DNA from: a virus
Strand: one strand, 5' to 3'
Virus genome (UHGV): UHGV-0078760
DNA length: 15,304 bases
In this document: positions 327 to 15,289 of the stretch, piece after piece
How the letters are laid out: every line of letters begins with the position of its first letter
Position numbering within the stretch: the stretch's first letter is position 1
Notes under the pieces: generated by a model
What the model saw: only the letters and a program-made list of their open reading frames with translations
What the model was told of the DNA's origin: nothing
Databases searched by the model: none
Program-made: the position numbers and the translations under genes

Positions 327-1502
327 TCAGTTTTGTTTGCGATTCAATGTTTGTAATGAAGTATTATTATCGTACTCTTTCAAATATCGACCATAATGCC
401 TAAACAACATTTCTGGACCTTTATGGCCCATCTGAGTGGCGAGCCAGAACAAATTTGTACCTTGACTGATATGCCTTGTGGCGAATGTATGTCTGGTCTG
501 GTAGGGGTTACGGTATCGAATTCCAGCTTTACGTAATGTAGGTACCCACGCTTTCTTCCTAATAGCATCAGCGCTAGCCCATGCTTTATTGCTTTTGGGG
601 TCTTCGAAGACCGTATCATCTTTCATAAAAGTGAAAGATTTCTGACTAGTTAGAGCATCTATTGCTTCGGTAGTCAGTTCAACTTTCCGTGTTCCAGCTT
701 TGGTTTTGGTCCCTTTGATTACGCCAACAACGCTGGCGTTCTGAACATGGGCCGTCATCCCTATAAAGTCGATATCACGCCAACGAAGAGCACACAATTC
801 GGAACTACGCAGCCCTGTTTGTATCGCGAACCGGAAAAGATTCTCCCACTGCTTATTGCCAGCAGCAGAGAGCAAAGCGTCTACTTCTGCTGGTGATAGC
901 GGATCAACCACATAACTACTTTCTGCCTCTGATTTATCACCTTGGTACCGTGAGGCTGTTACCAGTGATACAGGGTTAATCTGAAGCACACCATCCGTCA
1001 CCGCCTCATCCAAAGCAGAACGCAGGAATGACAGTTGGTTTCGGATAGTCTTTAATGTTGTTTTCTGGTTTTGGATCCATGTCTTCAGCGCGGCCGGCGT
1101 CAACTCACTTGCAGGAAAAATATGAAGTGATGACAGCGCGCTTCGGCATTTCTTATATCCACCAATTGTTGAAGGGGATAGTTTTCTCGTTTCACAGATA
1201 ACCAGATATTCGTCCAGGTACATCTTCACCGTTTTGCCTGCGGCAGCGTTGCCGAAAATTTTTAACCGGGTAGAACGGGGAAAGTATTCTGCATAAACAA
1301 ATGTCCCCCTCTCGATCTTGTTATGGATTTCGCCGAGTGTGCGCTCGGCGTATTTGATGTTTTTTGGGGTTACGTCCAGATTAGAAAGGGGCTCACGGCA
1401 TTTAACCCCTTTATAAGTGAAGGTAATATTGATGGTTTCGCCGTTGCGATGTTTCCTAATGGTTACGCCGCGCGGGAGCTTAGGCGATTCTGTCGTGCCC
1501 AT
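327..1502 (-). CDS. int: Tyrosine site-specific integrase (lambda-family architecture)
   Basis: 391-aa ORF with ATG start; C-terminal catalytic region with conserved R...HxxR...Y pattern (..RHTFATRHISQGTNLFWLATQMGH..RHYGRY); 5' end overlaps upstream excisionase as in lambda xis/int. Confidence 0.9.
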   Translation of the reverse strand: MGTTESPKLPRGVTIRKHRNGETINITFTYKGVKCREPLSNLDVTPKNIKYAERTLGEIHNKIERGTFVYAEYFPRSTRLKIFGNAAAGKTVKMYLDEYLVICETRKLSPSTIGGYKKCRSALSSLHIFPASELTPAALKTWIQNQKTTLKTIRNQLSFLRSALDEAVTDGVLQINPVSLVTASRYQGDKSEAESSYVVDPLSPAEVDALLSAAGNKQWENLFRFAIQTGLRSSELCALRWRDIDFIGMTAHVQNASVVGVIKGTKTKAGTRKVELTTEAIDALTSQKSFTFMKDDTVFEDPKSNKAWASADAIRKKAWVPTLRKAGIRYRNPYQTRHTFATRHISQGTNLFWLATQMGHKGPEMLFRHYGRYLKEYDNNTSLQTLNRKQN

Positions 1503-5866: not shown

Positions 5867-6523
5867 TTATAAATCCATTATCACTTGTCTTACTAATCCG
5901 ACCAAACGGCAGTTGCCGTTTACCTCGAGCATCCTGTAGTTGGGATTGAGAGGTACAAGGTATTTAAGCGGACCATCAATGACGAATTTTTTTATAGTGG
6001 CTTCGTCACTTCCCATTAGCTGAGCAATGACAATTTTACCATTTGCTTGGCTGGCATCTCCAAAGTCAGGTTCTACGACGACGAGAGAGCCCTCCGGGAT
6101 GCTTGGTGCGCCATTTGGGTTAGTCATTGAGTCACCGCGGACTATTAGTGCAAAAGCGCTCTCTGAAACAGCTGCTGAAGTGTAAACCCAGTCTTGAATG
6201 TCTCGTTCCGTTATCGCACCGCTATTGGCAGTCCATTCCCCGGCTTGCACCCACGTTAAAACGGGAACTGATCTAATTCCGAATCTCTGCTCTGGGTTCA
6301 TTGTTGGCGGTTGTTGTTTCCCGTCATCCTTACCCTCCAGCAACCACTGCGGTGTCTTTTCAAGAGCAGCCGCAAGCGCCTGAAGGTTCTCACCGCCAGG
6401 TTTATAGTCACCAGATTCCCAGCCGGTGATCGTGACGCGGTTTACCCCGACAAGCTTTGCCAGGACGGATTGCGTCATCTTCAGCTCTTTTCGTCTGCTT
6501 CGGATTCGATCATTCATTTTCAT
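5867..6523 (-). CDS. cI: CI-like phage repressor (N-terminal HTH, C-terminal S24/LexA-like autopeptidase)
   Basis: N-terminal HTH segment (MTQSVLAKLVGVNRVTITGWESG); C-terminal S24 signature with GDSM serine motif and downstream lysine (..IVRGDSMTNP...KKF..). Start placed at ATG 6523 (alt 6517); the track's longer N-terminus would run into the operator region. Confidence 0.85.
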   Translation of the reverse strand: MKMNDRIRSRRKELKMTQSVLAKLVGVNRVTITGWESGDYKPGGENLQALAAALEKTPQWLLEGKDDGKQQPPTMNPEQRFGIRSVPVLTWVQAGEWTANSGAITERDIQDWVYTSAAVSESAFALIVRGDSMTNPNGAPSIPEGSLVVVEPDFGDASQANGKIVIAQLMGSDEATIKKFVIDGPLKYLVPLNPNYRMLEVNGNCRLVGLVRQVIMDL

Positions 6524-6588
6524 GTAGGCAATCCTACCATTTTCTAATGTAGGAGTGCTTGACCATTTTATGTAAGATATCCTACTAT
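6524..6588. promoter_or_regulatory. OR/PR region: rightward promoter PR with operator-like inverted repeats; candidate PRM on the opposite strand
   Basis: Plus strand: -35 TTGACC (6559-6564) - 18 nt - -10 TACTAT (6583-6588). Operator-like 14-mers GTAGGCAATCCTAC (6524-6537, abutting the cI ATG) and GTAAGATATCCTAC (6572-6585, over the -10). Weak minus-strand candidate: -35 TTACAT, -10 TACATT. Confidence 0.6.
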
Positions 6589-6622
6589 CTATGCACTGCA
6601 TGACCTAACTCCAGAGGGAAAA

Positions 6623-7767: not shown

Positions 7768-8614
7768 ATTAACCGGCTACGTATGGGATGGTTGCGCGGC
7801 GTCGGGCATGAAGTTGTCTAGTGTCGCGATCATGGCGCGCCTTGCTGATTTTAGCAGCGATGAGGGGGTGTGCTGGCCGTCTATTGAAACTATCGCTCGC
7901 CAGCTTGGCGCAGGGCCGAGCACTATCAGAACGGCAATCGCTAAGCTTGAAAAAGATGGCTGGCTCACGCGTACACAGCGCCGTAATGGTAACCGTAATG
8001 CTTCGAACGTTTACCGCCTGAATGTGGCGAAACTTCAGGCTGCCGCATTTTCTCAACTGTCAGATTCTGACACGTCAAAATCTGACGCATCAAATTTTGA
8101 CACCTCAAAAGCTGACCCGTCGAAATCTGGCAAAAATGGCGGTTTTGACCCGTCAGAATCTGGCGGGGATCCGTCAGTAAAATCAAAACAAGATCCACAA
8201 GTAACTTCAAAACCCTCTTGTCCGGTTGCGGCGCAACCAGACCCTGAAGTCGTGATTACTGATCAGGCAATTTTGGTTCTGACCCATTTGAACCAGATCA
8301 GCGGATCCCGGTATCAGAAATCAAAAACATCCCTGGAGAACATCCGTGCCCGACTGCGTGAGGGATACAGCGTTGCAGACCTGCAACTTGTTATCGACCT
8401 GAAGCATGAGCACTGGCACGAGAACGACGAGCAGTACCAGTACATGCGTCCGGAAACGCTGTTCGGCCCGAAGAAATTCGAGAGCTATCTGCAAAGCGCT
8501 ACCTGCTGGGAGCAGAAGGGACGGCCTAAACGGGCTGACTGGGGCGCGAAAAAGCGCGATGTGATGGCTTTTGGTCCGGTTGAAACAACGATTCCAGAGG
8601 GGTTCAGAGGATGA
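7757..8614 (+). CDS. Replication initiator protein (N-terminal winged-helix DNA-binding domain; C-terminal conserved phage replication domain); lambda O analogue
   Basis: 285 aa in the O position; low-complexity Ser/Asp/Lys-rich central linker encoded by DNA iterons; C-terminal segment (..ILVLTHLNQISGSRYQ...ETLFGPKKFESYL..) recalled as the Phg_2220_C-type domain of phage replication proteins. Confidence 0.8.
   Translation: MSTKLTGYVWDGCAASGMKLSSVAIMARLADFSSDEGVCWPSIETIARQLGAGPSTIRTAIAKLEKDGWLTRTQRRNGNRNASNVYRLNVAKLQAAAFSQLSDSDTSKSDASNFDTSKADPSKSGKNGGFDPSESGGDPSVKSKQDPQVTSKPSCPVAAQPDPEVVITDQAILVLTHLNQISGSRYQKSKTSLENIRARLREGYSVADLQLVIDLKHEHWHENDEQYQYMRPETLFGPKKFESYLQSATCWEQKGRPKRADWGAKKRDVMAFGPVETTIPEGFRG
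8066..8180. repeat. Candidate origin of replication: iterons of a 10-bp near-palindrome TGACnCnTCA at about 15-bp spacing inside the initiator gene, followed by an A-rich tract
   Basis: TGACACGTCA 8068-8077, TGACGCATCA 8083-8092, TGACACCTCA 8098-8107, TGACCCGTCG 8113-8122, TGACCCGTCA 8146-8155, plus degenerate copies; A-rich 8177-8215. Analogous to lambda ori inside gene O. Confidence 0.6.
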
Positions 8615-9930
8615 CGTTAAACAAATATTGCCAGGCGCTGGCGGCACTGCGCAGCAAACCAGCCCACGAACTGAAAGAGGTTGGCGATCAGTGGCGAACA
8701 CCGGATCTGCTTTTCTGGGGTATCAACGCGCTATTTGGTCCATTAGTTCTGGACTTGTTTGCTGACGACGACAACGCGAAGTGCCCGGCATGGTACACCG
8801 CCGAAGATAATGCACTGACACAGGACTGGTCTGAACGTCTGGCAGAACTGGGTGGTGCAGGTTATGGCAACCCACCGTATAGCCGTTCGCAGTACCACGA
8901 GAAACAGGCGATCACCGGCATGACGCACATCATGAACTACGCAGCAGCCCAGCGCGAAAAGGGCGGTCGCTATGTATTCCTGATAAAAGCTGCGCCGAGC
9001 GAAACGTGGTGGCCGGAAGATGCCGATCACATTGTATTCATCCGCGGGCGCATTGGGTTCGATCTGCCAGTGTGGTTTGTACCTGCTGACGAAAAACAAA
9101 AACCCACCAGCGCGTTTTTTGCCGGTGCCATAGCTGTATTCGATAAGTCATGGCGTGGCGAGCGTTTCAGCTATATCAACCGTACAGAACTGGAGGCAAA
9201 AGGGCGTGCGTTTATGGCTTTGGCACAATTTGCTGCCAGCAAACCTCAACCAGCAACGTCCACACCAACAGTAGCCGGTAAGCCAGAAACAGAGTTGCCA
9301 CTCACCCAGAAAGATATTTTTGATATCAGCGGTGTCGAAGCGTGGGCATGTGTTAGAGCTGCGTTCGGCGATAAAGAAGAATACACATTCAGTGAATCGA
9401 AGTTTGGGCATACCTGGGCGGCGGATTCTGTCGAAGCACCGGAATTCTCTCAGGTATCACCATTAACGATCGACAAAGCGAAGCTGCTTATTCGTGAGAG
9501 TATTTTGTTCGGTGTGGATGAGTGGCTGTTGTCGATTCAATTCGATGACGCTGCTGCGCGCCTGGATATGTCGGAACGTATTCGCACTGTTGCCCTTGAA
9601 GCATCCGGTGAATATGGCATGAACAGTGCTGATTTCATTGCAGCTATGGGAAGCCTGGATGTTTCCAGTTGGTCCAATATTCGCCACATCCGCATGCACA
9701 TCCGTGAGAAAGCTAAACCAGTGGCGGATCCGCTTCCCGAGTCCCGTATCTGGCCGTTGGAGGTTGGAATTGTATTCGACCAGGTTGATGGCGCTGACAT
9801 GCTGGATGAATCACAGCAGAACAAGCTGAAAGCCAATATCAATCAACTCTGGCTGGAGCGGACGGCCACCAGCGAAATCATTACTGCAGCTTCTGAACTT
9901 GTTCGCAGTATGAGGGGAGAGGCCGCGTGA
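8611..9930 (+). CDS. Phage Dam-like N6-adenine DNA methyltransferase (N-terminal about 190 aa with NPPY motif) fused to a C-terminal region of about 240 aa of unknown function
   Basis: ATG overlaps the initiator stop (ATGA). Translation shows WRTPDLLF...DLFADDDNA...GNPPYS, recalled as the phage Dam family pattern. The C-terminal half has no motif I recognise. Confidence 0.8.
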   Translation: MTLNKYCQALAALRSKPAHELKEVGDQWRTPDLLFWGINALFGPLVLDLFADDDNAKCPAWYTAEDNALTQDWSERLAELGGAGYGNPPYSRSQYHEKQAITGMTHIMNYAAAQREKGGRYVFLIKAAPSETWWPEDADHIVFIRGRIGFDLPVWFVPADEKQKPTSAFFAGAIAVFDKSWRGERFSYINRTELEAKGRAFMALAQFAASKPQPATSTPTVAGKPETELPLTQKDIFDISGVEAWACVRAAFGDKEEYTFSESKFGHTWAADSVEAPEFSQVSPLTIDKAKLLIRESILFGVDEWLLSIQFDDAAARLDMSERIRTVALEASGEYGMNSADFIAAMGSLDVSSWSNIRHIRMHIREKAKPVADPLPESRIWPLEVGIVFDQVDGADMLDESQQNKLKANINQLWLERTATSEIITAASELVRSMRGEAA

Positions 9931-12005: not shown

Positions 12006-12026
12006 GTGTATGGAGCGCAAAGAAGC

Positions 12027-12716
12027 ATGAATCAACAAGACCTGAATTTTGTAAGAATAGAATTGCGCCGCGCGCTACCTGACCTCTCTGGGGGAACAAA
12101 AGGGCAGCTTGAGGCTTTCAGTGAACACCCACCAGCAGACAAAAATGCCACCCCGCGCCGTGGAATTCATCTCGTCGAACTTGAAGGAGAGAAGGGGCCA
12201 CGCTTTGTTCACTCGCTTTCCGCGCCACTGTATGTACTGGAAACACGCAGCCGCCGCAGGCCAATGCCGCCGATAAAAGATGCGGAATTTGAGTCCGCGC
12301 CGTGGCGTAGGGCAGTGTCCGCGCTTAGTGGATACCAGCAGGCCTGGTTGCGGTACTGCTACGGCTTTGACCTGAGCTATAAGCACCAGGTGATGATGTG
12401 TGAATACGTCTGGAAAACTTATCAGAAATGCCTGGGTGAAAACTCGCTTCAGGAGCGCGTAGTAAAGAAACTGATAGGCCTGGTATGGCTGGCCGGGCAG
12501 GAAATTGCCGCAACCAGAAATAATGAAACCTATAAAGACTATGCTGGTGCAGCGTTGGCCCGCATGGTTAGCGTTGACCGTTCGACATGGTTGCGTGTCT
12601 ATTCAGGGCACTGGGCTGGGTTAAAGGCCGCTTTTACGCAGCTTGATGAATCTGCGTTGGCCATGGCTCTTGAATACTATGAGGAAGAAGAAGCCCTCAA
12701 AGTGGCAGAAATGTGA
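12027..12716 (+). CDS. Putative late-gene antiterminator (Q-like), assigned mainly by position
   Basis: 229 aa from ATG 12027; immediately upstream of a promoter plus intrinsic terminator arrangement preceding the late/lysis genes. No sequence similarity to lambda Q that I can recognise; a different Q family is possible. Confidence 0.5.
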   Translation: MNQQDLNFVRIELRRALPDLSGGTKGQLEAFSEHPPADKNATPRRGIHLVELEGEKGPRFVHSLSAPLYVLETRSRRRPMPPIKDAEFESAPWRRAVSALSGYQQAWLRYCYGFDLSYKHQVMMCEYVWKTYQKCLGENSLQERVVKKLIGLVWLAGQEIAATRNNETYKDYAGAALARMVSVDRSTWLRVYSGHWAGLKAAFTQLDESALAMALEYYEEEEALKVAEM

Positions 12717-12746
12717 AGTAAATTTCACTATCTCCCTCAAACGCGC

Positions 12747-12775
12747 TTGCAAAATGCAACAAAATAAGCCATATT
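12747..12775 (+). promoter_or_regulatory. Candidate late promoter (PR'-like) with expected Q-utilisation region downstream
   Basis: -35 TTGCAA (12747-12752) - 17 nt - -10 CATATT (12770-12775); about 40-55 nt upstream of an intrinsic terminator, the classical PR'-qut-tR' layout. Confidence 0.4.
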
Positions 12776-12810
12776 TGAAGCATATTTGATATGTTGCCAA
12801 AATTTTATAA

Positions 12811-12833
12811 ACCCGCCGATGAGCGGGTTTTTT
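12811..12833 (+). terminator. Rho-independent terminator (tR'-like) downstream of the Q-like gene
   Basis: Stem ACCCGC / GCGGGT with loop CGATGA (12811-12828) followed by TTTTTT (12828-12833). Confidence 0.7.
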
Positions 12834-12865
12834 GGTATGATGGATTTCTTTTTAGGTGAGTTGTT

Positions 12866-13528
12866 ATGGATATAATTCATTTATTGGAAGTGCTTAATCC
12901 TCTTCAAAATGTAATAACTGTCAAAATTGATAATGACAAAGGGGGCTTTGCGACGTTCAGTGATTTCATAATTGCAGTCGCCCCTACAGTGATTGCTGGT
13001 TTTGCTATTTGGTTTTCTTATAGACAATTCAAAATTAGTCAGAGCAAACAAATTGAACAGTTTAACCATGGAATTAAGCAACAAATTAATGAGTTAAAAA
13101 TAAATACACAACTTGCTACTGAAGTGGAATTAATGAAAGATGAAAGCAAGGCCTTAAGAGAAGCTTTTGTCAGTTTTGTAGATGTCGCTTCATCGATTTA
13201 TAGCAGCAAGTCTGATTTTAAACAGTACGCTGAACGGTTAGGTGAAGATGCACTTAAGCATCAACAGTTATCCTGTCAAGCCATAATTGCTAACAGCAGT
13301 AAGTTCTTGCAAGCTAGATTGTTACTAATCTCTTATCTTAACCTTGATGATCCCGAAGAAAAAAACTTCTACGATTGCATTATTGCTATCGGCGATTGTG
13401 CATTTAATGGCGACGGAACAGGAGAGGATTTAGGGATATTGCAAGGTAAGGGCGCAAGTCTTTGCTTTAAATTAATAAAGAAGAAGCGCGATGCAATATT
13501 AAGCTTAGTAGATAACATCACCGACTAA
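12866..13528 (+). CDS. AT-rich moron: hypothetical protein with a single N-proximal transmembrane helix (FIIAVAPTVIAGFAIWF) and a largely helical soluble region; function unknown
   Basis: 220-aa ORF, ATG with AGGTGA SD 6 nt upstream; codon composition visibly more AT-rich than flanking genes; own extended -10 (TGgTATGAT, 12833-12841) just upstream; hairpin GCCTCTT/AAGAGGC (13543-13559) downstream. Confidence 0.7.
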   Translation: MDIIHLLEVLNPLQNVITVKIDNDKGGFATFSDFIIAVAPTVIAGFAIWFSYRQFKISQSKQIEQFNHGIKQQINELKINTQLATEVELMKDESKALREAFVSFVDVASSIYSSKSDFKQYAERLGEDALKHQQLSCQAIIANSSKFLQARLLLISYLNLDDPEEKNFYDCIIAIGDCAFNGDGTGEDLGILQGKGASLCFKLIKKKRDAILSLVDNITD

Positions 13529-13703
13529 TTACGAAATTTCTGGCCTCTTTTTGAAGAGGCATCCCGCTGTGAAAATGGGCGGCTGGTGGGTGTTAGCGCA
13601 CCCGGCCAGCCATCAGCTCATGCTTTCAGGTCACAAGCTAACCAAGGCCCACCGCTTTAGCGCAAAAGCAACGTGAGCCTATCAGAGTTACGCTTACTGA
13701 TCT

Positions 13704-14756
13704 ATGAAGAATACTGTAAAAATAAACAGTGTTGAGTTAATCAACGCTGATAGCCTGCATTACGTCGCCACCCTCCCGGATAACTCTATTGATCTGATAG
13801 TTACGGATCCGCCGTACTTCAAAGTGAAGCCCAACGGCTGGGACAACCAATGGAAGGGGGACGAGGACTACTTACGCTGGCTTGATAGCTGTCTGGCTGA
13901 GTATGCTCGCGTTCTTAAACCTGCTGGCAGCATCTACTTGTTTTGCGGTCACCGGCTGGCCTCAGACATAGAGATTATGATGCGTGCCCGGTTCAACGTT
14001 TTGAATCATATAATTTGGGCAAAACCATCTGGCCGCTGGAATGGCTGCAACAAAGAAAGCCTGCGTGCGTACTTTCCATCTACGGAACGGATTTTGTTTG
14101 CTGAGCACTATCTTGGGCCGTACACAGGTAAAGAGGACGTTTACGAAAGGAAAAGCACAGAACTAAAGCAGCACATTATGACGCCACTGATTGACTACTT
14201 CCGTAATGCCCGTGAATCACTGGGTGTCAGCTCGAAAGAAATAGCTGAGGCAACCGGAAAGAAAAACATGGCGTCACACTGGTTTGGTGCAAGCCAATGG
14301 CAACTACCAAATGAAGTGGACTATAGAAAATTGCAGGAACTGTTCACGCGGATCGCTATCGATAAGCACATTCAGCAGAAGCTTGAACATCCTCACCACC
14401 AGCTAGTGGCTACCTATCAGTCATTAAACCGCAAGTATTCAGAATTGCTGGAGGAATACAAAACCCTCCGGCGCTGCTTCTCTGTTTCCGCTCTTGTTCC
14501 GTATACCGACGTATGGACGCATAAGCCTGTTCAGTTTTATCCGGGCAAACATCCATGCGAAAACCCTGCCGATATGCTGAAACAGATCATTAGCGCCAGC
14601 AGCAGGCCGGGGGATATCGTTGCCGATTTCTTTATGGGCTCTGGTTCAACTGTGAAAGCAGCAATAGAACTTGGCCGTCGGGCGATCGGCGTAGAACTGG
14701 AAGCTGACAGATTTATTCAGACCACCGAAGAGGTGGAAAAACTGAGCAAAACATAA
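13704..14756 (+). CDS. Beta-class DNA methyltransferase (N6-adenine or N4-cytosine; DPPY motif IV preceding FxGxG motif I)
   Basis: Translation shows LIVTDPPYF near the N-terminus and FFMGSGST near the C-terminus (circularly permuted beta-class order) with a central variable region. No nuclease partner recognisable adjacent. Confidence 0.85.
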   Translation: MKNTVKINSVELINADSLHYVATLPDNSIDLIVTDPPYFKVKPNGWDNQWKGDEDYLRWLDSCLAEYARVLKPAGSIYLFCGHRLASDIEIMMRARFNVLNHIIWAKPSGRWNGCNKESLRAYFPSTERILFAEHYLGPYTGKEDVYERKSTELKQHIMTPLIDYFRNARESLGVSSKEIAEATGKKNMASHWFGASQWQLPNEVDYRKLQELFTRIAIDKHIQQKLEHPHHQLVATYQSLNRKYSELLEEYKTLRRCFSVSALVPYTDVWTHKPVQFYPGKHPCENPADMLKQIISASSRPGDIVADFFMGSGSTVKAAIELGRRAIGVELEADRFIQTTEEVEKLSKT

Positions 14757-14902
14757 CGATCATCACGCCCCTGTGGATGTGGTGATCACCATTTTCAGGC
14801 ACTGGGAATCATCCTTACTTTTATTTGAACAAAAGAGCCCGGTTGCCTGATTCCACATCCCCTCATTTCTGAGAGGAATCACAGCAATTAAGAGGGGGCT
14901 AA

Positions 14903-15289
14903 ATGTCCGATCCGATTTCCGGTACTGGACTGGCTGGTGGTGTCCTTACGGGTGCCAGCGTATATGGATTTCTGTCCGGAACCGATTACGGCGTGGTTTT
15001 TGGCGCGTTTGCCGGAGCTGTATTTTACATTGCGACCACAGCTGACCTGAGTGCAGCGCGCCGTCTGGCATATTTTCTGGTGTCGTATATTGCGGGGATC
15101 CTTTGTTCCGGGCTGGTGGGTTCAAAGCTGGCTCAGGTTACTGGCTACAGTGATAAACCACTGGATGCCATTGGCGCCGTAATCGTTTCTGCTTTAGCCG
15201 TCAAAATCCTGACGTTCCTGAATAATCAGGATGTCGGCTCGCTGGTGGCGCTGATAACGCGCCGGGGAGGTTCAGGTGGTACAAAATGA
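14903..15289 (+). CDS. Putative holin / small multi-pass membrane protein at the head of the lysis cassette
   Basis: 128 aa with 3-4 glycine-rich hydrophobic segments and a charged C-terminus; AAGAGGGGG SD; stop overlaps the ATG of the next gene (ATGA at 15286-15289). Four predicted helices is unusual for a holin, so the call is tentative. Confidence 0.45.
   Translation: MSDPISGTGLAGGVLTGASVYGFLSGTDYGVVFGAFAGAVFYIATTADLSAARRLAYFLVSYIAGILCSGLVGSKLAQVTGYSDKPLDAIGAVIVSALAVKILTFLNNQDVGSLVALITRRGGSGGTK

What the first reader, a model, noticed from the sequence alone, without database searches (positions are those of the whole stretch)
12866..14756. Possible two-gene cargo module: membrane protein plus beta-class DNA methyltransferase inserted before the lysis genes
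Between tR' and the holin, where lambdoid phages normally go straight to the lysis genes, there are two extra genes: the AT-rich membrane protein and a beta-class DPPY methyltransferase with no recognisable restriction endonuclease partner. The methyltransferase may be a solitary anti-restriction or epigenetic enzyme, or the pair may form an uncharacterised modification-dependent module in which the membrane protein is the effector. The prophage also carries a second, unrelated Dam-like methyltransferase at 8611-9930, so the genome is potentially doubly modified.
Basis: inference. Interest (0 to 1): 0.55.

Follow-up and report, generated by a model that had tools for sequence, protein, structure and literature searches.

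The report
Phage methylase beside an unrelated inserted gene
The two genes are real but are not a functional pair: the methyltransferase is a standard late gene of many temperate phages (family of the non-specific adenine methylase M.EcoGII), and the membrane protein is a separately acquired, self-promoted insert in a variable slot that in related prophages holds anti-phage defence genes.

Summary
Both ORFs exist exactly as described, in a Citrobacter lambdoid prophage. The pair is not a module.

**Methyltransferase (13704-14756).** It is 75% identical end to end to M.EcoGII, the characterised non-specific adenine methylase. Homologues sit between the late terminator and the holin in SfV, phiP27, mEp460, Stx2 phages, N15, PY54 and VHML. 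ORF220 is absent from all 95 phage records carrying it, 46 of 48 species-level loci and 41 of 43 viral contigs.

**ORF220 (12866-13528).**
- It lies in a 725-bp, 35% GC cassette that cleanly replaces 319 bp in a 97-98% identical relative.
- It carries its own extended -10 promoter, conserved in 12 of 14 contexts.
- Its alleles are far older than the neighbouring methylase (dS saturated against 0.05-0.25).
- Relatives occur without the methylase, in the P2-type gpA-portal defence hotspot (once beside GmrSD) and at chromosomal sites.

**The slot.** In other prophages it holds PD-Lambda-5, PDC-S33/S39/S42/M68 and a ClpP-like protease. ORF220 is best read as an uncharacterised prophage exclusion or defence moron; this is inferred, not shown.

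**Unexpected.** The methylase gene has a conserved, covarying, roughly 140-nt structured leader (13565-13710) with no Rfam match.

The parts
12006..12716 (+). Late antiterminator Q (phage-82 type), the left anchor of the variable slot.
   Evidence: Pfam PF06323 E 2e-36 and PHROG 304.
12747..12789 (+). Candidate late promoter PR'. The -35 TTGCAA is at 12747-12752, followed by a 17-nt spacer and the -10 CATATT at 12770-12775. A second copy of CATATTTGA at 12781-12789 may be the sigma70 pause element used for Q loading.
   Evidence: Read directly from the sequence. Conserved in all relatives with the 82-type Q. It falls below the threshold of the consensus scan. This is inference only.
12809..12836 (+). 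tR'-type intrinsic terminator (8-bp GC-rich stem plus T-run).
   Evidence: Terminator scan. Homology with E. coli Nissle and C. murliniae ends inside its T-run, at 12833-12837.
12834..13557 (+). The ORF220 moron cassette: about 725 bp, 33-38% GC.
   Evidence: In C. murliniae (L015) the flanks are 97-98% identical, and this stretch is replaced by 319 bp that carry a 63-aa ORF. The same right-hand junction (13558-13566) is seen in Nissle, L008, L009 and L013. GC profile.
12833..12841 (+). Candidate extended -10 promoter of ORF220, TGgTATGAT. The -10 hexamer is at 12836-12841.
   Evidence: TGnTA(T/C)(G/A)AT lies 24-26 nt before the ATG in 12 of 14 distinct upstream contexts. These include the other Q type and two P2-like prophages. 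Variants keep the TAnnnT invariants. Activity was not measured.
12866..13528 (+). ORF220, a 220-aa single-pass membrane protein of unknown family. RBS AGGTGAG at 12854-12860. TM segment is residues 34-52 (nt 12965-13021). The C-terminal part is a four-helix bundle.
13543..13560 (+). Hairpin just after the ORF220 stop. It is a weak terminator because no T-run follows.
   Evidence: Fold. Every relative has a hairpin at this position. Some have a proper T-run (L008, L013, L096).
13565..13710 (+). Conserved structured 5' leader of the methyltransferase mRNA: a three-way junction whose 3' end overlaps the start codon.
   Evidence: Covariance model R1. The methyltransferase starts at a fixed offset in 41 of 43 viral contigs. 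Detected in OS31, PY54, VHML and N15, none of which were in the seed. 17 of 27 pairs show compensatory changes, against 7.6 in shuffles (0 of 500). 89.6% of cells are paired, against 28-42% when partners are slid. RNAalifold agrees. No Rfam family.
13704..14756 (+). M.EcoGII-family beta-class N6-adenine DNA methyltransferase. DPPY at 13806-13817 and FxGxG at 14631-14645.
   Evidence: 75% identity over 348 aa to M.EcoGII and 69% to the reconstructed ancestor SUPREM. PF01555. PADLOC MTase_II E 1e-141. 95% nt identity to the E. coli Nissle prophage gene.
14903..15289 (+). Holin, the first lysis gene and the right-hand neighbour.
   Evidence: PF16931 E 3.5e-33 and PHROG 198.
8611..9930 (+). Second, unrelated phage Dam-type methyltransferase (439 aa). 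Only residues 19-199 match the family.
   Evidence: PF05869 E 7.5e-43 and TIGR01712 E 5e-61.

Best explanation
Two independent elements lie side by side in the late operon of a Citrobacter lambdoid prophage.

**(1) The methyltransferase.** It is an orphan enzyme of the M.EcoGII family with its own conserved structured leader.
- It has no recognisable promoter of its own. It should be transcribed from PR' only when Q lets RNA polymerase read through tR'.
- It would then methylate adenines in replicating phage DNA before packaging, probably with little or no sequence specificity. Progeny would escape host restriction.
- Family membership is shown. Timing, lack of specificity and the anti-restriction role are inferred from M.EcoGII.

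**(2) ORF220.** It is a moron: a 725-bp low-GC cassette with its own extended -10 promoter and a trailing hairpin.
- It sits in the hypervariable slot between tR' and the methyltransferase leader.
- Most likely it is made in the lysogen as an inner-membrane protein. The predicted topology puts the conserved acidic N-tail outside and the variable four-helix bundle in the cytoplasm.
- Most likely it protects the lysogen against other phages, by superinfection exclusion or abortive infection.
- Its cassette nature, autonomy and independence from the methyltransferase are shown. Its expression, topology and defensive role are inferred.

**Sub-confidences.** Not a functional pair, 0.85. M.EcoGII family member, 0.95. 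Non-specific activity, 0.6. ORF220 is a defence or exclusion gene, 0.4.
For: **Methyltransferase**
- 75% identity to M.EcoGII and 69% to the ancestor SUPREM. Both are reported as non-site-specific enzymes.
- Homologues lie between the late terminator and the holin in Flotzy, SfV, phiP27, mEp460, Stx2 phages and N15. Stx-phage papers note the same position.
- No promoter-like site was found in 12650-14950.
- M.EcoGII is not expressed during normal growth of its native strain and slows growth when over-expressed.

**Independence of the two genes**
- ORF220 is in 0 of 95 phage records that carry the methyltransferase, and in 0 of 50,697 phage records overall.
- It is in 2 of 48 species-level loci and 2 of 43 viral contigs.
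- In 934 E. coli genomes, matches begin only at window 13566.
- ORF220 relatives without the methyltransferase occur in the P2-like gpA-portal hotspot (L095; L098, beside GmrSD) and at chromosomal sites (L096, L100). They are intact next to a truncated or split methyltransferase in L093 and L102.
- dS is 0.6 to saturated for ORF220 alleles, against 0.05-0.25 for the adjacent methyltransferases.

**Cassette and hotspot**
- Clean junctions at 12833/12834 and 13557/13558.
- Conserved TGnTATGAT promoter element.
- In relatives the slot carries PD-Lambda-5, PDC-S42, PDC-S33, PDC-S39, PDC-M68A, a NYN protein and a ClpP-like protease.
- The P2 gpA-portal locus is an experimentally validated defence hotspot (PMC9122126).

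**ORF220 protein**
- The N-tail is conserved (80% mean pairwise identity) and the bundle is variable (36%).
- Flank charges favour an N-out, C-in topology across the family.
Against: **ORF220**
- Nothing links it to a known defence or exclusion protein. There is no PADLOC, Pfam or PHROG hit. An exhaustive profile search of 1.84 billion representatives finds only 36 relatives, all unannotated.
- The fold is a generic four-helix bundle.
- Location in a hotspot is circumstantial. Such slots also carry virulence and housekeeping cargo.
- Pairwise dN/dS never exceeds 1, so diversifying selection is not demonstrated.
- In the closest 22 clusters that were checked, ORF220 always sits next to the methyltransferase. 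Some lineage-specific interplay therefore cannot be excluded.
- The hairpin after ORF220 lacks a T-run in this window. Transcripts from the ORF220 promoter might read into the methyltransferase.
- In the more distant relatives the hydrophobic segment is marginal (KD 1.2-1.8).

**Methyltransferase**
- Specificity at 75% identity is not guaranteed to be the same as that of M.EcoGII.
Confidence: 0.6

Rival explanations
1. ORF220 and the methyltransferase form one functional module. For example, ORF220 could be a membrane toxin or effector whose action depends on, or is held in check by, adenine methylation.
For: - The genes are adjacent, on the same strand and in the same late operon.
- In every close ORF220 homologue checked (39-65% identity) the methyltransferase follows, even across different Q and holin types.
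- The pair is kept in degraded prophages L005 and L006.
- The weak hairpin between the genes could allow co-transcription.
Against: - Non-co-occurrence in both directions.
- ORF220 stays intact where the methyltransferase is deleted or frameshifted (L093, L102).
- dS values are discordant.
- There is a clean cassette junction and separate regulatory elements.
- M.EcoGII works alone.
Confidence: 0.06
2. ORF220 is a lysogenic-conversion or host-physiology factor rather than an anti-phage gene. It could be a membrane-anchored sensor or decoy, an envelope modifier or a stress factor.
For: - It has moron architecture and its own promoter.
- Some relatives sit at ordinary chromosomal sites, next to an RND pump or an M60 peptidase.
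- Classic lambda morons such as bor and lom are not defence genes (own knowledge).
Against: - It recurs in two different prophage hotspots that are rich in defence genes, once beside GmrSD.
- Deeply diverged alleles are shuffled into young flanks. That pattern is more typical of conflict genes.
- It has no signalling output domain.
Confidence: 0.25
3. ORF220 is a late-expressed lysis accessory, such as an antiholin, a lysis-timing regulator or a spanin-like protein.
For: - It lies in the late operon, two genes before the holin.
- Its layout (one TM segment plus helical domains with conserved cysteines) loosely recalls i-spanins and RI-type antiholins (own knowledge).
- The hydrophobic segment of distant relatives is Ala/Gly-rich, like SAR domains.
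Against: - No PHROG or Pfam lysis family matches.
- Related loci already have a full holin, endolysin and DUF2514 spanin set.
- The gene is absent from the great majority of phages that carry the same methyltransferase and a downstream lysis cassette.
- Relatives occur in P2-like hotspots and at chromosomal sites, far from any lysis genes.
Confidence: 0.07
4. The methyltransferase is a sequence-specific epigenetic regulator that is active in the lysogen, possibly driven by read-through from the ORF220 promoter, rather than a late anti-restriction enzyme.
For: - No T-run follows the ORF220 hairpin in this window.
- Beta-class orphan methyltransferases such as CcrM act as regulators.
- 25% sequence divergence from M.EcoGII could change specificity.
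Against: - The position after tR' is conserved and there is no dedicated promoter.
- Family members were not detectably active in the native strain and slowed growth when over-expressed.
- The structured leader overlaps the start codon and there is no Shine-Dalgarno sequence, which suggests expression is held down.
- Reconstructed ancestors across the clade are also reported as non-specific.
Confidence: 0.12

Closest known systems
[quoted passage not shown]
   Same: - 75% identity over the full 350 aa.
- Beta-class motif order: DPPY, then the target-recognition domain, then FxGxG.
- Prophage-encoded orphan with no nuclease partner.
- Lies in a lambdoid late region.
   Different: - The host is Citrobacter.
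- 25% of residues differ, including in the central target-recognition region.
- Activity and specificity have not been measured.
- No leader RNA turned up in the M.EcoGII papers consulted by term search.
Morons of lambdoid phages, as defined for HK97/HK022 (lambda bor and lom; stx in Stx phages downstream of Q-PR'-tR')
   Same: ORF220 is a single gene with its own promoter-like element and a trailing hairpin. It has deviant GC. It sits between sequences that are adjacent or differently filled in close relatives. This is the same late-operon position where stx genes lie.
   Different: The cargo protein is unrelated to any known moron product. Expression in the lysogen has not been shown.
Prophage defence hotspots (P2 old/tin locus between gpA and portal; P4 hotspot), Rousset et al. 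2022
   Same: - It is a small (0.4-3.1 kb) locus of high turnover between conserved anchors: tR' and the methyltransferase leader.
- It contains PADLOC-recognised systems in several species.
- ORF220 relatives also occupy the P2 gpA-portal hotspot itself.
   Different: The Q-methyltransferase slot of lambdoid prophages turned up as a defence hotspot in none of the papers found here. Only a manual sample of about 45 loci was surveyed, and no enrichment statistic was computed.
Membrane-anchored superinfection-exclusion or abortive-infection proteins of temperate phages (P22 SieA/SieB, HK97 gp15, lactococcal Sie2009, lambda RexB) - recalled from memory
   Same: A small prophage-encoded inner-membrane protein with autonomous expression signals and rapid allelic diversification.
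   Different: No sequence or fold similarity was found to any of them. The comparison is by analogy only.
Four-helix-bundle (4HB_MCP-type) sensor domains of Tsr, Tar, PcaY, QseE, TorS and NarQ
   Different: - Identity is 3-12%.
- De novo designed bundles score almost as well.
- There is no second TM helix and no output domain.
- The charge bias predicts that the bundle is cytoplasmic, not periplasmic.

Membership tests
M.EcoGII family of beta-class N6-adenine methyltransferases | Beta-class motif order: catalytic DPPY at the N-terminus, central target-recognition domain, FxGxG SAM-binding motif at the C-terminus. | tested here: met
   DPPY at residues 35-38 and FMGSG at residues 310-314. PF01555 spans residues 29-336.
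M.EcoGII family of beta-class N6-adenine methyltransferases | Full-length sequence similarity to M.EcoGII, including the central domain. | tested here: met
   260 of 348 residues identical (75%) with 2 gaps. 69% identity to the ancestor SUPREM/Anc284. The sequences were taken from PMC11551740 Table S1.
M.EcoGII family of beta-class N6-adenine methyltransferases | Methylates adenine in any sequence context. | not testable with these tools
   Needs a methylome or an in-vitro assay. Inferred only from M.EcoGII and its reconstructed ancestors.
M.EcoGII family of beta-class N6-adenine methyltransferases | Prophage-borne and silent in the lysogen. | tested here: inconclusive
   The prophage location after Q-PR'-tR', with no promoter-like site, was confirmed. 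Silence in the lysogen was not measurable. Read-through from the ORF220 promoter remains possible.
Type II restriction-modification system | A cognate restriction endonuclease gene next to the methyltransferase. | tested here: not met
   The neighbours are ORF220 (no nuclease signature), Q and a holin. Homologues in 95 phages are likewise solitary.
Two-gene functional module (ORF220 plus methyltransferase) | The two genes co-occur across genomes, in both directions. | tested here: not met
   The methyltransferase occurs without ORF220 in 46 of 48 species loci, 41 of 43 viral contigs, 95 of 95 phage records and the E. coli genomes. ORF220 relatives occur without the methyltransferase in L095, L096, L098 and L100.
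Two-gene functional module (ORF220 plus methyltransferase) | Shared evolutionary history or co-divergence. | tested here: not met
   L028 against L030: methyltransferase dS 0.045, ORF220 dS saturated. Window against L007: 0.15 against more than 1.7.
Moron (autonomous gene cassette in a phage genome) | Inserted between sequences that are contiguous or differently filled in close relatives. | tested here: met
   C. murliniae L015 has 97-98% identical flanks, and 725 bp is swapped for 319 bp. In L011 a remnant of the displaced 63-aa ORF follows the ORF220 homologue.
Moron (autonomous gene cassette in a phage genome) | Its own promoter and terminator. | tested here: inconclusive
   An extended -10 element, TGnTATGAT, lies at a fixed distance in 12 of 14 contexts, and a hairpin follows the stop in all of them. 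These are sequence features only. In this window the hairpin lacks a T-run.
Moron (autonomous gene cassette in a phage genome) | Nucleotide composition unlike the surrounding phage genome. | tested here: met
   GC 0.33-0.38 against 0.50-0.57.
Known anti-phage defence systems (PADLOC-DB v2) | A significant match to a defence-protein HMM. | tested here: not met
   No PADLOC family at E <= 1 for ORF220, and none at E <= 0.001 for the L095 homologue.
Known anti-phage defence systems (PADLOC-DB v2) | Confers resistance to phage infection. | not testable with these tools
   Only the hotspot context supports this.
Phage lysis proteins (holin, antiholin, spanin) | A match to a lysis family, and conserved placement within the lysis cassette. 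| tested here: not met
   No PHROG or Pfam lysis family matches. The gene is absent from most phages that have the same cassette, and relatives lie outside lysis cassettes.
Rfam RNA families (for the methyltransferase leader) | A match to any of the 4,227 covariance models. | tested here: not met
   Over 12600-15000 at E <= 1, the only hits are Trp/Leu-leader noise on the tR' hairpin.

The most novel reading that the evidence does not exclude
**(a)** The roughly 140-nt three-way-junction leader fused to the start codon of M.EcoGII-type methyltransferase genes is an undescribed class of cis-regulatory RNA. It would gate translation of a promiscuous, growth-impairing, SAM-dependent enzyme by binding a metabolite such as SAM or SAH, or a phage or host protein. 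It is conserved from Escherichia and Citrobacter to Yersinia, Serratia and Vibrio phages.

**(b)** Separately, ORF220 may found a new single-gene, membrane-anchored anti-phage family, with a conserved N-tail and TM 'effector' and a hypervariable cytoplasmic four-helix 'sensor'.

The probability given is that at least one of (a), in the broad sense of a functional regulatory RNA, or (b) is true. A true riboswitch would be about 0.1-0.15. ORF220 as a defence gene would be about 0.35-0.4.
Probability: 0.6. Interest if true: 0.6.

Novelty: new member of a known kind. Interest (0 to 1): 0.38.

Why it matters
As submitted, the finding turns out to be ordinary: a known kind of phage anti-restriction methyltransferase next to an unrelated moron. 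Three things may still be useful.

1. **A candidate defence-gene slot.** The stretch between tR' and the M.EcoGII-type methyltransferase behaves like the P2/P4 defence hotspots. Its two anchors are short and well conserved, so it could be mined across Enterobacterales prophages and short metagenomic contigs for new anti-phage genes. ORF220 is one candidate.

2. **A possible control element for a widely used enzyme.** M.EcoGII is a commercial reagent used for chromatin and RNA mapping. A conserved structured leader on its natural genes points to an unknown way of restraining an enzyme that slows growth when over-expressed. That may be relevant to expressing it heterologously.

3. **A caution for annotation.** Adjacency within a prophage late operon is weak evidence for a functional module.

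Tried and rejected
**ORF220 homology searches, all without a meaningful hit**
- Pfam, PHROGs, NCBIfam and PADLOC on ORF220 alone. The only NCBIfam hits were far below their cut-offs.
- Pfam and PHROGs on 30 family members at E <= 1. The output was noise. Two members hit SLATT_1 at E 0.007, which was not pursued as significant.
- Pfam on 10 of the most distant relatives.
It then ran and found only 36 full-length relatives. The ten clusters looked up, including the most distant, are named only from Yersinia and Enterobacter.

**ORF220 structure searches**
- Foldseek against PDB and BFVD gave nothing at E <= 0.001.
- The afdb50 library was unavailable.

**Other negative or unresolved checks**
- hhalign of the family against the similarly built 220-aa protein in the same slot of Enterobacter RIT637 (L058): probability 1%, so not homologous.
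- tblastn of ORF220 against 50,697 phage records and 72,556 plasmids: no match.
- tRNA scan (Stx phages carry tRNAs at this position): none.
- The consensus promoter scan found 0 sites in 12650-14950. It also missed the likely PR', so it is too strict to argue against the extended -10 element.
- Pairwise dN/dS above 1 in the variable bundle, as a test for positive selection: not found, and most pairs are saturated.
- A possible pseudoknot between the second hairpin loop (AGGUCA) and UGAUCU just before the methyltransferase AUG: the variation is too limited to judge.
- The supplement of the M.EcoGII paper is not held. The sequence was taken from the SUPREM paper instead. That text is machine-read from a PDF and may contain a few errors.
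Full report
**1. What is there**

The window is the immunity-to-lysis part of a lambdoid prophage. Its gene order is:
- integrase (327-1502, minus strand) and a cI-like repressor (5867-6601, minus strand)
- a Dam-type methyltransferase (8611-9930)
- RusA, Ant and a DUF968/HNH protein
- Q antiterminator (12006-12716)
- ORF220 (12866-13528)
- an N6_N4 methyltransferase (13704-14756)
- a holin (14903-15289)

ORF220 is 100% identical to a hypothetical protein of Citrobacter braakii.

- GC is 0.33-0.38 across ORF220, against 0.50-0.57 around it.
- ORF220 has one strongly hydrophobic segment at residues 34-52.
- The methyltransferase has DPPY at residues 35-38 and FxGxG at 310-314, the beta-class order.
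- It has no nuclease neighbour.
- A terminator with a T-run lies at 12809-12836, just after Q.

**2. The methyltransferase is a known kind of enzyme in its usual place**

Its sequence is 75% identical over 348 residues to M.EcoGII. It is 69% identical to SUPREM/Anc284, a reconstructed ancestor of that clade.

M.EcoGII is a prophage-encoded orphan beta-class enzyme. It methylates adenine in any context, is not expressed during normal growth of its native strain, and slows growth when over-expressed. Its discoverers proposed that it overcomes host restriction (PMC5778455). The ancestors are also reported as non-site-specific (PMC11551740).

Homologues at 50-83% protein identity occur in 95 phage records. 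These include phiNP, SfV (orf48), mEp460, phiP27, many Stx2 phages, 1720a-02, cdtI phage, N15, PY54, phiKO2 and VHML.

Where I looked, the gene lies between the late promoter/terminator and the holin:
- Flotzy: Q, a small ORF, the methyltransferase, then the holin.
- N15: annotated promoter, terminator, methyltransferase, holin.
- E. coli Nissle 1917 prophage.

Stx-phage papers also record a DNA methylase just downstream of Q (PMC8456039 and PMC10462455). The statement that lambdoid phages go straight from tR' to lysis genes is therefore true of lambda but not in general. Only ORF220 is 'extra'.

**3. The two genes are not a module**

*The methyltransferase usually occurs without ORF220.*
- ORF220 has no match in 50,697 phage records or 72,556 plasmids.
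- In 934 E. coli genomes that carry the methyltransferase region, the listed matches begin at window 13566, and none covers 80% of the query.
- Among 48 species-representative loci whose methyltransferase is at least 55% identical, only two carry an ORF220 homologue: Enterobacter wuhouensis and a Buttiauxella MAG.
- Among 43 IMG/VR contigs that carry the methyltransferase leader, only two do.

*ORF220 relatives occur without the methyltransferase.* The family has 43 clusters at 90% identity and only 36 representatives among 1.84 billion. All named members are Enterobacterales.
- The closer relatives (39-65% identity) all sit in the same Q-to-methyltransferase slot.
- Two of the more distant clusters lie between gpA and the portal gene of P2-like prophages, once next to GmrSD.
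- Two lie at chromosomal sites.
- One survives intact in an Enterobacter prophage remnant where only the first few codons of the methyltransferase remain.
- One sits beside a methyltransferase split in two.

*The two genes have different histories.* Synonymous divergence between ORF220 alleles is 0.6 to saturated. For the adjacent methyltransferase genes of the same pairs of loci it is 0.05-0.25. For example, L028 against L030 gives 0.045 for the methyltransferase and a saturated value for ORF220. Old ORF220 alleles have therefore been recombined into young flanks.

**4. ORF220 is a moron cassette**

The cassette replaces other sequence cleanly.
- Citrobacter murliniae (L015) has flanks 97-98% identical to the window. 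Window 12834-13557 (725 bp) is replaced there by 319 bp encoding a 63-aa winged-helix-like ORF.
- The Nissle prophage breaks at the same two points but carries about 1.8 kb of other cargo.
- In Kluyvera (L011) the 3' remnant of the 63-aa ORF still follows the ORF220 homologue. This shows that the cassette was inserted into that older arrangement.

The cassette brings its own expression signals.
- TGnTA(T/C)(G/A)AT lies 24-26 nt upstream of the ATG in 12 of 14 different upstream contexts.
- These contexts include prophages with the other Q type and the P2-like prophages.
- Variants (TATGAT, TACAAT, TATACT) keep the invariant positions of a -10 hexamer.
- A hairpin follows the stop codon in every context. 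In this window it has no T-run.

dN/dS of 0.1-0.3 shows that the gene is under purifying selection.

**5. The slot is a cargo hotspot**

In 45 loci the Q-to-methyltransferase distance ranges from 394 to 3,136 bp. Apart from ORF220, the cargo includes:
- a ClpP-like SDH serine protease (Nissle, Kluyvera)
- a D12 methyltransferase plus a PD-Lambda-5_A protein
- PDC-S42
- a RelA/SpoT protein matching PDC-S33, next to an NA37 protein
- a DUF7380/DUF4209 protein matching PDC-S39
- an HNH-type protein matching PDC-M68A
- a NYN-domain protein
- several unknown gene pairs, many on the opposite strand

The P2 gpA-portal locus, where distant ORF220 relatives sit, is an experimentally validated anti-phage hotspot (PMC9122126). 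A second variable site lies between the methyltransferase and the holin. It holds HicAB in L008, L010 and L102, and a 276-aa ORF in L013.

**6. What ORF220 may do**

The AlphaFold2 model has mean pLDDT 79. It shows a disordered N-terminal 28 residues. The TM helix then runs on as a long helix to residue 122, whose distal part packs with three further helices into a four-helix bundle.

Conservation is uneven:

| Region | Mean pairwise identity |
|---|---|
| N-tail | 80% |
| TM and juxtamembrane helix | 64-67% |
| Bundle core | 36% |

Some alleles (window against L008, L009 and L013) are about 95% identical in DNA up to about codon 95 and unalignable after that.

Flank charges (N side -1 to -3, C side +1 to +3) consistently predict an N-out, C-in topology. 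In the more distant group the hydrophobic segment is Ala-rich and marginal.

My best guess is a prophage-encoded exclusion or abortive-infection protein with a variable cytoplasmic recognition domain. This rests on context and evolutionary pattern only. A non-defence lysogenic-conversion role is the main rival.

**7. An unexpected element**

The 138 nt between the cassette junction and the methyltransferase ATG are conserved far better than expected for a spacer. One-nucleotide indels break any reading frame, so the stretch is non-coding. It folds more stably than shuffled sequence (z = -3.1).

I built a covariance model from 23 leaders.
- It found the complete element in 43 of 80 viral contigs that share a 14-mer.
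- The methyltransferase ORF started at the same offset in 41 of those 43.
- It also found the element directly upstream of the methyltransferase in Serratia phage OS31 (60 bits), Yersinia PY54 (59 bits), Vibrio VHML (37 bits, E 6e-7) and N15 (31 bits, E 1e-5). None of these was in the seed.

On 13 diverse sequences:

| Measure | Observed | Control |
|---|---|---|
| Pairs with compensatory changes (of 27) | 17 | 7.6 in shuffles (0 of 500 reach 17) |
| Cells paired | 89.6% | 28-42% when partners are slid |
| Covariation score | 0.377 | 0.14 or less |

That alignment was fitted to the model. However, RNAalifold run on it recovers the same helices 1-5, and the unfitted MAFFT alignment already gave 9 covarying pairs against 2.3 expected.

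The structure is a three-way junction. Its invariant closing helix is UGGGC/GCCCA, and the junction nucleotides are highly conserved. No Shine-Dalgarno sequence precedes the AUG. No Rfam 15 family matches.

I read it as a cis-acting leader that restrains or times expression of an enzyme that is harmful when over-expressed. Its mechanism is unknown.

**8. Verdict**

- **Observation:** confirmed.
- **Interpretation:** half right. The solitary anti-restriction methyltransferase reading holds. The two-gene effector module does not.
- **Methyltransferase:** a new member of a known family.
- **ORF220:** a new, narrowly distributed and unannotated moron family in a hotspot.
- **Leader RNA:** the most interesting by-product.

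Overall interest is moderate to low for the finding as posed. The two undescribed elements give some upside.

Noticed in passing
window 13565-13710 (also L223:1367-1507, L224:1371-1512, L225:1322-1466, L226:1363-1507): A conserved three-way-junction RNA leader is fused to the start codon of M.EcoGII-family methyltransferase genes, in phages from Escherichia to Vibrio. It shows strong covariation (17 of 27 pairs) and has no Rfam family. It may be a new cis-regulatory RNA for an enzyme that is harmful when over-expressed.
   Followed up: yes
L015:3659-3850, L001:3797-3988 and 12 other loci. Absent from the window; a remnant lies at L011:5674-5814.: A conserved 63-aa winged-helix-like ORF (weak DprA_WH hit) sits immediately 5' of the methyltransferase leader in prophages that lack ORF220. 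The ORF220 cassette displaced it. It could be a small regulator of the methyltransferase.
   Followed up: partly
L032:1139-3436, L024:2473-3366, L033:1644-3763, L046:1610-3388, L040:2404-3156, L064:562-1437, L001:2729-3628: In other species the Q-to-methyltransferase slot carries PD-Lambda-5 (with a D12 methylase), PDC-S42, a PDC-S33-like RelA/SpoT protein next to an NA37 protein, PDC-S39, a PDC-M68A-like HNH protein, a NYN protein and a ClpP-like SDH protease. Unknown 308-aa plus 177-aa pairs lie on the opposite strand (L020, L047, L054). This looks like a lambdoid-prophage defence hotspot.
   Followed up: partly
L008:6953-7591, L010:6953-7591, L102:5938-6576, L013:6999-7829: There is a second variable site between the methyltransferase and the holin. 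It holds a HicA/HicB toxin-antitoxin pair on the opposite strand in three loci and an unknown 276-aa ORF in another.
   Followed up: no
window 8611-9930; L004:387-2384, L009:130-2064, L013:133-2067: The Dam-type methyltransferase here is 439 aa, but only residues 19-199 match the family. The C-terminal 240 aa have no Pfam domain. In close relatives the same position holds a roughly 295-aa Dam plus a 644-665-aa C5-cytosine methyltransferase, so some of these prophages encode three DNA methyltransferases.
   Followed up: no
window 12747-12789: The likely PR' has its -10 (CATATT) inside a 9-nt motif, CATATTTGA, that is repeated 11 nt downstream. This arrangement fits a sigma70-dependent promoter-proximal pause site for Q loading. 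The PR'-to-tR' transcript would be only about 50 nt.
   Followed up: no
L058:3172-3834 (Enterobacter sp. RIT637): A different 220-aa protein with the same layout occupies the same slot: an N-terminal region, one TM segment and a helical C-terminal part. It has no detectable homology to ORF220 (hhalign probability 1%). It may be a functional analogue.
   Followed up: partly
L223:1501-2589 (phage N15, NC_001901.1 gene 52): The annotated start of the N15 methyltransferase (locus 1735) is probably about 234 nt too far downstream. The tblastn match to the window protein starts at locus 1501, and the leader element ends there.
   Followed up: partly
L093:1799-4687 (Enterobacter roggenkampii CP109727.1): A prophage remnant keeps a truncated Q, an intact ORF220 homologue and the methyltransferase leader with only the first codons of the gene. 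A RelA/SpoT-like gene pair lies just upstream on the opposite strand. The ORF220 homologue is found on 22 contigs, which suggests it is retained after the phage decayed.
   Followed up: partly
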